Shown here piece after piece: positions 23,015-31,129 of a stretch of 64,000 nt of DNA (its first letter is position 1; each line of letters starts with the position of its first letter). Below the pieces are notes generated by a model. That model made no database searches and was not told the origin of the DNA. It saw only the letters and a program-made list of their open reading frames with translations. Position numbers and translations under genes: made by a program. The DNA is from Spizellomyces punctatus DAOM BR117 (Eukaryota): NCBI GenBank assembly GCA_000182565.2, contig KQ257454.1. One strand, written 5' to 3'.

Positions 23015-25070
23015 ATGGCAACAATCGCACAGGTACATGCAATTTATGGCCATTGTTTATTCTTTTGGTATGGTCTGCTACGATGTGTACATAGTGTAAA
23101 CATTGCCATTACGTGGTGGGACTTTTCTATTAGTTGCAATGTTTCCATACTTACCATCTCTCTGCATACTACGCTACATTATTTCCATTGAGAAGGCACG
23201 AGGAGGCCGACATGGGGGCTTTCGATCGGATTTTCTGATTGCCAACCGTCGACGGGAGGAAGAGACCCGAACCCGCATGCGCGAGCAAATCCAATACTAT
23301 GAAAAAACAGCTCTACAGTCGCATTTTGAAGAGTCGACAAATGCCGCTATCATGCGAAACAGGATCATGCGCCGTTTTGAGGAGCTAAAGTCTCAAGAGA
23401 ATAGCAAACTTGAGCAACGGAGGGAAAGGTATGTAGGTCGGGTTCTTTTACGGCTCGCGCTCTAGGTGCCGACTAGATATACCATTTTGTTAGATTGCGA
23501 CAGTTACTGGCCCACGATGACGAACGGTACCAAAAGGAACTGGCATCAACAGTCGTGACTGGAGAATCTCGGGTCGAAGCCATGCGGGCAAGAATGAATG
23601 AATTGAAAGCAAAGCGAGAAAAGGAGCGTCAGAAAATCGTGGAGGAGAAGCTCTTGCAACGATGGAGGTGGGAGCATAGTTTTAATGCAACCATCCGAAC
23701 TGAAATTGATGAAACATGTGTGTCTGTTTGGTAGAAACGAATGTGACGAGCTTCGTTCTATAGAGTCACATCTGTTGGAAAAAGAAGTTGCCAGCGCCAG
23801 AGCGGAACAGTTGATCGAAGTCCAAGAAAAGAGAGCATTGGCAAAGCAGGAGAAAAAATACTACGATGATCTGTGGGAACAAGATCGTCTCAAAAAGATT
23901 GAACGAGAAGAAGCAGATCGGTTACGAAGAAGAGCCATGAATGAAGCCATGACAGCTACCTTGCAGGAACAGCTACGACTTCTCAAAGAGCACGCGCAGG
24001 AGGAACAACGATTAAAGCAGGAAGAGGGAGTTTTGATGGTAAAGTGACCGCTCATACGACCTCCACATATTGACATGCGCTAAATTTACAAACTCGCACC
24101 ATTCTAGCGACAAGAACACGAGCTTCGCCTGCTAGAAGAAGAACGAGCCCGACTCCGCAAAATCCAAGACCAACGCCAAGTCCGCCTCGAACTCGATGCG
24201 TTCAACAAGCTCAAAGTCCAACAACGTCAGCGTGAAGTCCAAGATGCCCTCGACTTGGATATCAAGATTGTCAATGCCTTTTTCCGCATGGATGAGCAGG
24301 AGAAAGAGAGCCGTAATAGACGAAAGGAAGAGATGAGAAAGGAAATGCTGCTTTATATGGAACATTTGAGGGAACAACAACGGATTGAGAAGGAGAGAGA
24401 ACGAGAGGTTGACAGGATGTATGCTGAGGAAGCTGAAAAGGTTACTCTTTGCTCACAAAACCTGATCTGCCTACCTTGAGTACTGACAATCTTTGTTCTC
24501 ACAGTTATGGCAAGCCCGAGCAGAAAAATGGAGTAAAGAACAAGGTGCACGCGACCGGCTCATGCAAGAGGTTCTATCCGGTCGCCAAGAGCAACTACAA
24601 AACGCCCGTACGTTCCCCACCATACTTGCCCCTTGAATGACTATCATAATATTAAATTTTCCCACTTGTGTACAGTCAACCACAATCGTGTCCGTCAGGA
24701 AGAAGCCCGAATGGAAAAACATCTTCTTGAACAGCAAATCGCTCAAGCGCGTGCCCAAGAAGAGGCAGAGCGGGAGCGACATGCACGTAATGCACAAGAA
24801 TATAAAGGGGCATTGTTACAGCAAATGACAGTTGCGCAAGAGAGGAAGAAGGTGGAGAAGGAACAAGCTGCACGGGAGAGTGCGGCTGAAAAGGAAGCTG
24901 AAGAGTTATACAAGGACTTGCTTCGACAAGAGACGGATCGCGCGCATCAATTGCCAAGGTTTGGACAGAGTAAATGTGAAAATCACAACGTTTTTTGCTG
25001 GAGGCTTACCCGTTTTTTACTTGTAGAGTCCGAGCCTTTAGAGCAACGAACCGTGATGCTACTCGATTGA
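23015..25070 (+). CDS. CFAP53: Axonemal coiled-coil microtubule inner protein, CFAP53/CCDC11-like, spliced
   Basis: TPH-type coiled coil; RMNELKAKREKERQKIVEEKLLQRWR|NECDELR, YYDDLWEQDRLKK. Confidence 0.78.
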
Positions 25071-25338: not shown

Positions 25339-26082
<744 letters not shown>

Positions 26083-27071: not shown

Positions 27072-28203
27072 TTAGACTTCCAAAGTCACTTCAGGGAATG
27101 GAAGGGCCATAAAGTCATCGTCAAACTCGAGTGCAGAAATGTCCTCTGCCTGCTGCAAAAAGACTATTTGTCGTTCCATTTCAGACAAGATCATTGTGAC
27201 AAGATAATACAAGAACATTCATGCAGAATAACTCACATTCATCTTGAAATGGTAATTTCATGCTCAAATCTGGAGGGGACAATTCCGGCAAGTTATCATC
27301 GTAGAGGGCATCCCAGATGGCTGGATCCACGTAGGGATCCAAGCGGGGTTTAGCCAAAAAGTGGTGGTCGACAATCAGCTCTGGGTCTGGCCTGTATTTC
27401 TCCTCTGCATTATGGAAAAGGCGTTAGCAACCATTTAGAGCCCGTAGCCGTTTCACGAACATCCATACCGAATGTAGATGGAGGCATATACTCAATCTCA
27501 ACATCCTCTAATGCTTCTACCGCAGTCCCTGAAGCAACATCAGCTGTACTCTCCACTCGGTTCTCATCCCCAAAATGTTTCTTCACTTTGGTCGAGCTCT
27601 TTTTTGCCGATGATTTCAGAGATCGGACCTGTTCACCAGATCGGCTCATCGTGGATCGTTCTAATGCTCTCTGTGAATCAAAGGCCTTGTACGGAGTTTC
27701 GAATTTTGCAGCTTTAAGAGGCTTCTCGTGGGATGTCGGCGCCGTATTGCGCGGTGTGTTGACCTTTTCTTGCAGTAAGCGCTTGACGGGGGCGGGAGTC
27801 TTGACTGGGACCATGAGCTGCACATGTTTGTTCTTGGGGATATTCTTTAGAGCGCTTCGTGATTCTACAGTGGCGTTGGTTTCTTTGACGTTGACCGATT
27901 TGCCTTGCAAGGCGGTCGGCTGAATTCCCACTGTTACAAGGACCATCCAAATCAAGTACACACAAAACAATGCGCTAACAGAGAAAGAGACATACCTCGC
28001 CCGCCAGGCGTCTTTGCAAACCCACTGGACCCTTTCCCCACCTTTGCTGGCGTCGCATTTTCCTTGTCCACATTCAACAGTACGGTTTTCTTACTCGTTA
28101 GCCCAGCCCGACCAGGTGTTTTAAACGACAGGCCCTTTGCTCCAGGTGTCTTGGTCGCGCCAACAGCATTCTCCTTGTCAACATTGTTTTCCTTGTTTTG
28201 CAT
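27072..28203 (-). CDS. Putative securin (separase inhibitor; Pds1/Cut2/PTTG1-like), 4 exons, ~309 aa
   Basis: Exons 28203-27996, 27930-27469, 27404-27237, 27163-27072. Three KEN boxes, D-box RSALKNIPKN, many TP sites, EDVEIEYMPP motif, acidic C-terminus. Confidence 0.65.
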
Positions 28204-28766
28204 GTGCCGTTGGACGGCGCGAACCGAGGGAAGATTCCGAATCATTCTGTGTGCTGCCAAGACTCTGAATGCGGTATGGATGACCGCCGTCAGATGCAAT
28301 CTCTGTGACGGCTGCGGCAGAGGGCTTGTAAACAATTAAAACGCTGCACTTGTCTCGTCTGGTCTGTTGGAGATCATCAGATGCAAATGCGTAGCAATTT
28401 CAAGTCAACAGATCAGCTACGAACAGAGTTGTCAAACACACCGACGCGTTCGAATGTCCGACTGGCACTCTTGGGTAAGCATTCCGATCGTCCTCACACC
28501 CGTTGCGAAATGCCGTGGAATGTTGTTTGGAAACAGAGATGTTAGCATAGCCAATGCAGCACACCCATGACTTGTCAAATGTATGAACTCTGTTCGTTGG
28601 TTACATGATCAGCATCTACCTGATATTTGAATATCAAGATATTGCTCGACAGGTGAGTATGGTACAGTGCATCTGCACCAGTCCTCCAATTGATATTGCG
28701 CAGAATTCAACAGAATTATACGAAAAATATATCATGTCCTATCAAGTATACACAGCTCTTTTACAT

Positions 28767-31129
28767 TTACCGCAAATACCCATTCGGCTGCGCACCATTT
28801 TGGAACCCGCTTGTCCTCAGAGTCCGCAATTGTGGGTGTGCAGACTGAAAAGTCGTAAACACCATATAACTGAACACGTTATCATCTTCGATGGTTGCAC
28901 CGCGGTTGGCCCAGTACAGGCGGAACATTTCTTTTGTTATCTGGTCCATTCTTGAAAGGGATGAAGAATTAGAAAACATGTGAATGATTGTGTCGGAGGA
29001 AATTCGAGCTTTTTTACCGTTCTGAGCCATCAAATCCTGCCTCCAGCTCTTCCTCAAAAAGGCGATCCCGAGATTTCTCACCAGATAGCCATTCGGTAAA
29101 CCGAGTGCAATCAAACGCAGCGCGGAGCTGGTGAATGTCAATAAAACCTGCAACCAAAAACCCGTCAGCCAAGAGTCACTCGGATCATATATAAACCAAG
29201 TAACTTACCCCGTTTTGGGGTATCCAGTCGTGCAAACGCTTGATCTGAAACGTATCTTCTTAGTGGATCCATGTCACCTCGCAGGTCTTCAATGAAGCGC
29301 ATATACGGAATTGCATTGCTCTCTGTCGCATAGTGGACGATCAAACCATCCATGTTCTGTCATCCCAGAAAGATGAATCCAGGTGTCACCTAGCCAAAAA
29401 GATTGGCCATCACGCATACCTCAACGCCGAGCAGCGGTAAGCATTCTAAGAGCACCTCTGTAAATACACCTGCAGGAACACAAAGAGTTTGATGCGGGTC
29501 TTGCGCGCGTAAGTTTCGGATCAATGATGCGACTGTCAGACGTTTTCGATTTGATGCAGTTGAACGAAGTTGGTTCTTGATTGTCTTGAAGATTAGCTGT
29601 AACCCAAGAACGTACAATCAGGTTTCCCTTTTCTCTAACTGAAATCGTGTCTCTGGTTTTTACCTCGAGAGGCAGCACGATACCAGCCGTTCGATCCACT
29701 CTGCCCATTCTCCTTATACGAACTCTTTGCTCTCCCTCTCTCATCCCTATCGCGGCTACACTATAATCGGGCAACACATCGTAACGTTTGTATACAAGCC
29801 TGCCATCCCTTTTCCGTGGCTTGGGTGCTGGAGTTGCTGGGAACCCTCGGGTACCGGTCCTATCATCGGCTGTCGACTGGGTTTGGTCCAATATCGGCCA
29901 GCAGCATTTTACCATTGAAGAAAAGGTGGTGTCGGACGAGTAGCTGATGGAAAGACCGGCAAAGTAATCCAGAAACTGGGTGCGAGATATTCTTGGGGGA
30001 CAGTAGTATAGGAACGTGTCGATGAATTCTAAGGTAACTTCTTCTACTCTTTTATGGCCTGCCATTAAATGTGTGCGCCTTAACCAATATGCACGAATAT
30101 GCACCAATCTGTAGAGATACCTACCATTTACAACGTCCGGATGTCCAGCGGCGTGAAATGCTCTTTTAACCTCCTCTCTATCAATCTTTCCATCATCCCC
30201 TTTTCTGAAATGGCCAAAGAGTGCAAGGATGACTTCCCGCCGTTGGCTACTAATCTTGCCCTAAGGAATTCTAGGCATAAGTGAGCCTGATCAGAACAGG
30301 TACTTGACTGAGATTGCAATACCGCAATAGCTTTGACCAGTTCGTTATAGACGAGATGGTTAGTTCCAAAACCGTAGTTCTCGTATAGAATCGTAAAGCC
30401 CTGTAATACAAGTGATGAGGACATGTCACGGATGCTGGCTTTTTAATGGCATTGCTTCACGATCTGACCTCTGGAGTAATCTCCAGCTCTGCATCTTTTA
30501 ATGCTTTTTCGAATCTTGGCAGAGTCAGCTTTCCGCTGTAAACATAAAAACATCATTTATCAATTTTTGATGCCCTCAAAAAAACGTCCTATCCGTTCAA
30601 ATTACTTACCTCCTGTCCAAATCATTCTTTTGGCAAAACTGCAAAAAACTAAAAATGCCACGGGCACCGCGCCGGCTCAAGGTATCCTACATCGAGGATG
30701 AATATCGGACAAAAGAACCCTACAAGCTGCTACAAACATTACTTACACGAAGCTCTTGCAGAATGGATTCCACCCTGGGATCCACTATTGGGTTCTTTGT
30801 TTGTGCTTGTGCTCCTAATGACTGGGGCACCTTGGAAGACTTTTGCTGAGTGGAAAATTTGTGTTCGGTTGGTTGAAGCCATCCTTGTTCATAGGCACGG
30901 CGTTGTAGGACCGCACGAGGTATATGCTTCGTGCTTCATAAAGAAAAGTAAATATATTAGAGATGAATAAGATGGGAAGTTTACAATATTTTGTAAAAAA
31001 AAAATACTGTTACCTATAGTTTGTCGAAAACAATGCCAGTCCCGCAGGTGATTCGAAAAACGATTCCGATCCCAGATCTCGTGGGGGCTTGGCGGCGGAC
31101 AAGCCTGGCGGGTTCCTTGCCCTGAGCAT
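28767..31129 (-). CDS. Calcyphosin-like degenerate EF-hand protein, multi-exon (boundaries approximate)
   Basis: LEFIDTF...ISRTQFLDYFAGLSISYSSDTTFSSMVKCCW and FIEDLRGDMDPLRRYVSDQAFARLD resemble calcyphosin repeats. Confidence 0.55.

What the first reader, a model, noticed from the sequence alone, without database searches (positions are those of the whole stretch)
27072..28203. Probable securin in an early-diverging fungus
Seen: a low-complexity ~309-aa protein with a basic N-half holding three KEN boxes (NKEN, DKEN, DKEN), a D-box (RSALKNIPKN) and many TP Cdk sites. These are followed by EDVEIEYMPP, a DPE about 11 residues later, a downstream NLPEL and an acidic tail. Known: securins are almost undetectable by BLAST but share KEN/D-boxes and a [DE]IExxP-type separase pseudosubstrate, and human securin has an LPE docking motif just downstream of it. 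Inference: this is the lineage's securin and probably sits in annotations as a hypothetical protein.
Basis: partly seen in the sequence, partly recalled or inferred. Interest (0 to 1): 0.75.

Follow-up and report, generated by a model that had tools for sequence, protein, structure and literature searches.

The report
Chytrid fungus securin, predicted separase inhibitor
This unnamed chytrid-fungus gene very probably encodes securin, the brake on the protease that separates sister chromosomes, which is an expected but hard-to-find member of a known family rather than a new kind of system.

Summary
The gene is real: four exons on the minus strand, with introns 1 and 3 seen spliced in public runs. 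Five homologs were found, all Spizellomycetales 'hypothetical proteins'. All six keep DKEN, an RxxL D-box and IEYMPP. The stretch DVEIEYMP copies the predicted cleavage site of this genome's own kleisin, SIEIERAR, with Pro replacing the P1 Arg. A complex prediction for the cognate Geranomyces pair scored 0.64 against a best control of 0.02 (mark reached by 51 of 78 solved, 2 of 108 mismatched pairs). It placed that Pro on separase's catalytic His/Cys. One of three runs failed and a pass from memory is possible. No Pfam or PDB sequence link to known securins was found. Verdict: securin, about 0.9; a new member of a known family. A 2011 survey found none in chytrids; a 2025 preprint calls securin widespread, and its unseen supplement may list it. 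The scan noted securin candidates before in other genomes.

The parts
27996..28245 (-).
   Evidence: donor GTATGT at 27995
27931..27995 (-). Intron 1, 65 nt, GT..AG
   Evidence: spliced joint 27930-27996 in one contig of run X5
27469..27930 (-). Exon 2: D-box region, basic linker, pseudosubstrate motif
27405..27468 (-). Intron 2, 64 nt, GT..AG with CTAAC branch site
   Evidence: sequence and homolog collinearity; not seen spliced
27237..27404 (-). Exon 3: KYxP/DPE docking stretch, later LPE
27164..27236 (-). Intron 3, 73 nt, GT..AG
   Evidence: spliced joint in runs X1 (1 contig) and X7 (4 reads, 3 starts)
27072..27163 (-). Exon 4: acidic tail and stop
   Evidence: RNA depth peaks here in X7
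28216..28245 (-). Conserved N-terminal motif MIRNLPSVRA, function unknown
   Evidence: M1, R3, P6, V8, R9, A10 invariant in 6 of 6
28186..28194 (-). KEN box 1 (this species only)
28168..28176 (-). KEN box 2 (3 of 6 orthologs)
28057..28065 (-). KEN box 3 (DKEN invariant in 6 of 6)
27887..27916 (-). TALQGKSVNV: most conserved 7-residue window; looks like a D-box lacking its Arg
   Evidence: identity 1.0 over 4 homologs; the D-box likeness is inference from the alignment
27830..27859 (-). D-box RSALKNIPKN
   Evidence: R, L and N aligned invariant in 6 of 6
27479..27505 (-). Separase pseudosubstrate DVEIEYMPP (E230 = P4, P233 = P1)
27364..27399 (-). KYRPDPELIVDH: probable exosite (LPE-type) docking stretch
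   Evidence: K, Y, P, D, H invariant in 6 of 6; ortholog residues 297-299, 303, 305 in the modelled interface
27283..27291 (-). Late LPE (43 residues after P1), kept in 4 of 6
   Evidence: not in the confident interface
28444..28449 (.). ACGCGT (MCB-like) 204 nt upstream of the ATG; weak
   Evidence: 30 of 475 500-nt tiles carry one

Best explanation
The gene encodes the securin of a Spizellomycetales chytrid. The acidic C-terminal third lies along separase. E-I-E-Y-M-P-P enters the active site like a cohesin cleavage site: Glu230 takes the P4 position and Pro233 sits where the substrate's P1 Arg would, so it is not cut (modelled for an ortholog pair, not shown). The following KYxP..DH stretch docks on the adjacent helical domain (modelled). 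The basic, disordered N-terminal two thirds carries KEN and D-box degrons. APC/C-Cdc20 would ubiquitinate it at metaphase, freeing separase to cut the kleisin at SIEIER/EIERAR (inferred from known securins). The TP sites are probably Cdk sites that tune this (inferred). Shown here: the gene, splicing of 2 of 3 introns, transcription, motif conservation, single copy, and a separase and kleisin in the same genome.
For: Layout matches the definition in PMC6690013: N-terminal KEN and D boxes plus an invariant Glu in a conserved patch. EIEYMPP is the second most conserved 7-mer (0.96 vs mean 0.33) and lies at 69-74% of the length in 6 of 6, with net charge +24 to +27 before it and -15 to -22 after. 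It parallels human 113-EIEKFFP, the substrate rule [DES]-hydrophobic-ExxR, the fission-yeast DIE motif and Pro at P1 in budding-yeast securin. The genome's kleisin (Pfam N and C domains) has 2 strict sites, SIEIER and EIERAR, of 5 ExxR in its 525-aa frame, with an LPE 69-71 residues on. The genome has a 2109-aa separase with intact His/Cys. Complex of Geranomyces HDU88 P0158 (1185-2101) with P0003 (270-345): score 0.64, best of 3 controls 0.02; the mark was reached by 51 of 78 solved and 2 of 108 mismatched pairs; runs agree in at least 36% of contacts; partner pLDDT at least 42. Pro289 touches His1974 and Cys2000 at 2.3-2.4 A expected error. Of 59 genomic motif matches, only this gene has 2 or more KEN within 1100 nt upstream. 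ESM Atlas ranks a 'Securin' cluster third (0.88) and a cluster with PF04856 on 55% of members seventh (0.87), a lead only.
Against: No Pfam family for the 3 exon frames or the 5 homologs. No PDB chain at E up to 10 for the profile or the motif peptide. Homologs stop at Spizellomycetales: 5 of 6856 and 5 of 7997 candidates, so no chain of similarity to a tested securin exists. Atlas recognition is low (1270), ranks 1-2 are unnamed, and exon 2 alone matches Cyclin_N clusters at 0.81-0.84. In one search one of three runs scored 0.06, partner pLDDT was 43-52 and the alignments were not used. The test is uncalibrated for disordered chains and peptides, like complexes are solved so a pass may come from memory, and the pair folded was the Geranomyces orthologs, not this protein. 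A true substrate peptide would probably dock there too. No literal LPE lies 11-14 residues after the motif, and no NxLx-hydrophobic-E is evident before it (read). One review describes P1 as a large hydrophobic residue; here it is Pro, as in budding yeast.
Confidence: 0.9

Rival explanations
1. An APC/C pseudosubstrate inhibitor of the Acm1/Mes1 type. Its several KEN and D-box-like motifs would occupy Cdh1 or Cdc20, and the IEYMPP patch would serve some other partner.
For: Up to three KEN, one D-box and an invariant Arg-less D-box-like TALQGKSxNV; many TP sites.
Against: No ABBA-type motif (pattern recalled). It does not explain an invariant copy of the kleisin site, the acidic C-terminal third, or the active-site placement. 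Only one KEN is kept in all six.
Confidence: 0.04
2. An ordinary APC/C substrate, such as a spindle or chromatin protein, with a conserved motif that resembles a separase site by chance.
For: [DE][IVM]E[YF]xP occurs 59 times in six frames of the genome. Exon 2 resembles cyclin N-terminal tails in the Atlas. No family link.
Against: The motif is among the most conserved parts. The combined layout occurs in 0 of 20,000 shuffles and in 1 of 59 genomic matches. The model picks the predicted register without an alignment. No folded domain is predicted (mean pLDDT 42.7, shallow alignment).
Confidence: 0.04
3. A securin-like separase binder that arose independently in chytrids by copying the kleisin site. 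It would work like securin but not descend from the ancestral securin gene.
For: No detectable similarity outside Spizellomycetales. The 2025 preprint concedes possible convergence of such motifs. PMC3195147 treats fungal and animal securins as non-homologous.
Against: Known securins also fail to find each other by PSI-BLAST. Motif order and the aromatic-P3 / Pro ending match known securins. This rival shares the mechanism of the best explanation, so its probability overlaps with it.
Confidence: 0.08

Closest known systems
Budding-yeast Pds1 (PDB 5U1S/5U1T with separase) and fission-yeast Cut2
   Same: [quoted passage not shown]
   Different: No detectable sequence similarity. Extra conserved motifs here (MxRxLPSVRA, TALQGKSxNV). 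No VPE/LPE proper at +11 to +14. Untested experimentally.
Human securin PTTG1 (Pfam PF04856; PDB 7NJ1)
   Same: 113-EIEKFFP parallels EIEYMPP; a proline-containing docking stretch follows within about 10-13 residues; KEN and D-box N-terminal.
   Different: P1 is Phe in human and Pro here. LPE is replaced by KYxP[DP]. Longer (323 aa). PF04856 does not hit.
Plant PATRONUS/RSS1
   Same: Securin recognised by layout (KEN, D-box, invariant Glu patch) rather than by BLAST.
   Different: The plant pseudosubstrate is ambiguous, while here it is clear; PATRONUS has genetic and pull-down proof, this has none.

Membership tests
Securin | Conserved KEN box in the N-terminal part | tested here: met
   DKEN invariant in 6 of 6
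Securin | Conserved D-box in the N-terminal part | tested here: met
   RxxL with downstream N aligned in 6 of 6; N at position 9 in P0001, about 10 in the others
Securin | Invariant Glu in a conserved acidic patch, [DES]-hydrophobic-E-x-x with non-Arg at P1 | tested here: met
   [ES]IEYMPP in 6 of 6; definition
Securin | LPE/VPE docking motif 11-14 residues after the pseudosubstrate | tested here: inconclusive
   DPE at +11 here but not conserved as such; KYxP invariant and in the modelled interface
Securin | Intrinsically disordered, no folded domain | tested here: inconclusive
   Ortholog model pLDDT 42.7, 294 of 353 residues under 50, but only 5 sequences; low hydrophobic content in the N-part
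Securin | Binds separase through the active site | tested here: inconclusive
   Model supports it: 0.64 vs best control 0.02, P1 Pro on His/Cys, 2 of 3 runs, ortholog pair; a prediction, not a measurement
Securin | Inhibits separase and is destroyed by APC/C at anaphase onset | not testable with these tools
   needs experiment
Pfam PF04856 Securin | HMM score above the cut-off | tested here: not met
   0 of 8 sequences; the genome search with PF04856 was uninformative because nothing rang anywhere. Not filed as PF04856; the securin assignment is functional.
Acm1/Mes1-type APC/C inhibitor | D-box, KEN and ABBA motif in a row | tested here: not met
   no ABBA-pattern match (pattern and definition recalled)

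The most novel reading that the evidence does not exclude
Spizellomycetales securin has a second job. Two motifs are conserved about as strongly as the separase site: the N-terminal MxRxLPSVRA and the Arg-less D-box look-alike TALQGKSxNV. I know neither from other securins (recall; not searched). The second could hold Cdc20/Cdh1 without triggering destruction, making the protein both separase inhibitor and APC/C damper, for example to time the synchronous nuclear divisions of the sporangium.
Probability: 0.12. Interest if true: 0.65.

Novelty: new member of a known kind. Interest (0 to 1): 0.42.

Why it matters
Securins are among the hardest cell-cycle genes to find. A 2011 survey that included two chytrids lists separase but no securin for Chytridiomycota (PMC3195147, Table 2). 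This names a concrete gene and its orthologs, now annotated hypothetical, and corrects the start. It supports the view that securin control is general in fungi. It gives a seed for profile searches in other early-diverging fungi and a ready experiment (P1 Pro-to-Arg, degron deletion). It is not surprising: a 2025 preprint already argues that securin dates to the last eukaryotic common ancestor, and its supplement, which I could not see, may list a chytrid ortholog.

Tried and rejected
Pfam on 3 exon frames and 5 homologs: none. PDB by profile and by motif peptide: none. Foldseek on the low-confidence model: none, and uninformative. PF04856 over the genome: nothing, with silent controls. Profile search A2 found no new homolog. 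Metagenome scan: 135 pattern matches, 0 confirmed; a second scan could not be built from alignment A3. The one deep HMMER job went to separase, so no deep profile search for securin homologs was run. Paper search for motif strings gave only noise. 'securin chytrid' gave 91 papers, of which 20 were listed, mostly unrelated and probably matching 'securing'. The second EIEYMP in the genome (L031) follows a stop directly and has no KEN upstream: rejected. The ExxR in FEEKYR is not conserved (1 of 6): not taken as a cleavage site. The late NLPEL as the docking motif: 43 residues away, 4 of 6, outside the confident interface. MCB-like promoter site: 5 in the window vs 9.3 expected, 30 of 475 tiles; not counted as evidence. 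Run X3 contigs are unspliced and gave no exon evidence. The C. thermophilum structure paper and the journal version of the preprint were not held.

Full report
Gene. The region holds a four-exon gene on the minus strand. Four of nine listed runs were laid. Intron 1 is skipped in one contig of X5. Intron 3 is skipped in one contig of X1 and in 4 reads of X7, whose depth peaks over the last exon and 3' end. Intron 2 was not seen spliced, and coverage there was thin. It rests on GT..AG, a CTAAC branch site and the homologs running straight from IEYMPP into KYxP. An in-frame ATG at 28245 adds 14 residues, MIRNLPSVRAVQRH. All five homologs start with the same motif and P0001 matches the genome from exactly that base, so 323 aa is the better model. 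No RNA contig reached either ATG.

Motifs and chance. The three KEN, RSALKNIPKN, 7 TP, EDVEIEYMPP, DPE, NLPEL and the acidic tail are there. In 100,000 shuffles, three KEN arose 17 times, [DE][IV]E[YF]xP 189 times and seven TP 61 times. KEN and RxxL ahead of the motif arose in 0 of 20,000, while a loose pseudosubstrate pattern arose in 16,007 of 20,000. The patterns were picked after seeing the protein, so these numbers overstate the case.

Homologs. Three searches returned 1 of 1139, 5 of 6856 and 5 of 7997 candidates: Powellomyces hirtus, Geranomyces variabilis (2), G. michiganensis and Phlyctochytrium arcticum. They are 29-37% identical to the model, and all 7 records in their clusters are named hypothetical or uncharacterized. 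The host is therefore probably a Spizellomycetales chytrid (order assignment recalled). The best conserved 7-mers against four of them (P0002 left out as 90% identical to P0003) are TALQGKS 1.0, EIEYMPP 0.96, PSVRAVQ 0.89 and DKENATP 0.79, on a mean of 0.33. The motif sits at 69-74% of the length, with a basic part before it and an acidic part after it, in 6 of 6. Only one KEN is common to all. The late LPE is in 4 of 6. The gene is single-copy by protein search. A metagenome scan confirmed 0 of 135 pattern matches.

Partners in the genome. Separase lies on contig C3. Its full 2109-aa protein is P0006, with Peptidase_C50 at E 2e-124, the GHG and GCSS catalytic motifs and its best PDB match in C. 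thermophilum separase (organism of 5FC3 recalled). A Rad21-type kleisin lies on C13. Of 5 ExxR in its 525-aa frame, which includes intron read-through, 2 fit [DES]-hydrophobic-ExxR: overlapping SIEIER and EIERAR. An LPE follows 69-71 residues on, within the 50-100 given for substrates. Lined up P8 to P1, the kleisin reads SIEIERAR and the candidate DVEIEYMP. That the kleisin is cut there is itself a prediction.

Is there a better candidate? A DNA pattern for [DE][IVM]E[YF]xP gave 59 matches (29 for the reversed control), and all 59 were examined. This gene has 3 KEN and 5 [KN]TP within 1100 nt upstream; 6 others have one KEN and 52 have none. The scan misses motifs split by introns or with other residues at P3 and P1.

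Complex. The spliced window protein was not available to the tool as one chain, so the natural pair from one Geranomyces assembly was folded: separase P0158 (1185-2101) and ortholog P0003 (270-345), paired by locus-tag prefix. Runs scored 0.06, 0.64 and 0.65; median 0.64, best of 3 controls 0.02. The mark was reached by 51 of 78 solved complexes and 2 of 108 mismatched pairs; for eukaryotes, by 39 of 65 without a like structure and 2 of 126 unrelated pairs. The runs agree in at least 36% of contacts, partner pLDDT is at least 42, and alignments were not used. In the best run Pro289, the first Pro of IEYMPP, touches His1974 and Cys2000 (invariant) at 2.3-2.4 A expected error. Glu286 touches 2037-2038. 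Residues 297-299 (YVP), 303 and 305 are also in the interface. This is the register predicted beforehand. Separase-securin complexes are solved, so the pass may partly reflect memory, although no PDB chain resembles this protein by sequence. The test is uncalibrated for disordered partners.

Against. No Pfam hit. No link by sequence to any tested securin. Atlas hits stay under 0.9: two securin-labelled clusters at ranks 3 and 7 for P0001, but Cyclin_N clusters for exon 2 alone. No literal LPE at +11 to +14. No experiment.

Mechanism. Shown: gene, transcription, conservation, presence of separase and kleisin. Modelled: pseudosubstrate insertion with Pro at P1 and docking of KYxP. Inferred from known securins: inhibition, APC/C-dependent destruction through KEN and D-box, Cdk phosphorylation at TP sites. 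Confidence 0.9.

Literature seen. PMC6690013: passages, section 9, one supplement search without chytrid mention. PMC6858450: passages and a supplement search. PMC10317155: parts 1-2 of 4. Passages only: PMC12609080, PMC7863939, PMC10003635, PMC8995007, PMC4626109, PMC3195147 (44, including Table 2, blank for chytrid securin). bioRxiv 2024.01.07.573240: outline, passages, sections 3 and 17. It infers securin in LECA from short motifs in 177 proteomes that include at least one chytrid (Gonapodya). Its figure and supplement were not seen and may list an ortholog. Searches for a described chytrid securin: securin + Spizellomyces gave 1 paper and securin + Chytridiomycota + separase gave 1 (both PMC3195147); securin + early-diverging fungi gave 0. 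The library lacks most subscription journals. I recall that fission-yeast and Chaetomium securins have a very similar stretch ending in Pro; beyond the DIE core this comes from no call.

Verdict. A well-supported new member of a known family, with a corrected start and two unexplained conserved motifs. Useful, not surprising: interest 0.42.

Noticed in passing
window 25339-26082 (-): Two tandem ubiquitin units fused to a C-terminal AN1 zinc finger in one open frame.
   Followed up: partly
window 27887-27916 (-): TALQGKSxNV is invariant in 6 of 6 and closely resembles the true D-box of P0005 (RPALQEKTVN) without the Arg.
   Followed up: partly
L071:2327-2350 (G000:C13): The kleisin has two overlapping strict separase sites, SIEIER and EIERAR, two residues apart.
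   Followed up: partly
L005:1187-1686 (G000:C3), upstream of separase: Four ACGCG half-sites within 290 nt of the putative separase ATG; none upstream of the kleisin.
   Followed up: no
window 28663 and 28767-29204 (-): A poly(A) end at 28663 marks an expressed upstream neighbour without a clear Pfam family (best Swc3, E 0.09), leaving about 420 nt before the securin ATG.
   Followed up: no
window 23607-25070 (+): Coiled-coil gene with a trichohyalin-plectin-homology domain, probably a ciliary protein.
   Followed up: no
L072 (G000:C4:1705300-1709300): A second, divergent kleisin-like gene (Rad21_Rec8 C-terminal hit, E 9e-5), possibly Rec8; no strict separase site in frames of 80 aa or more.
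   Followed up: partly
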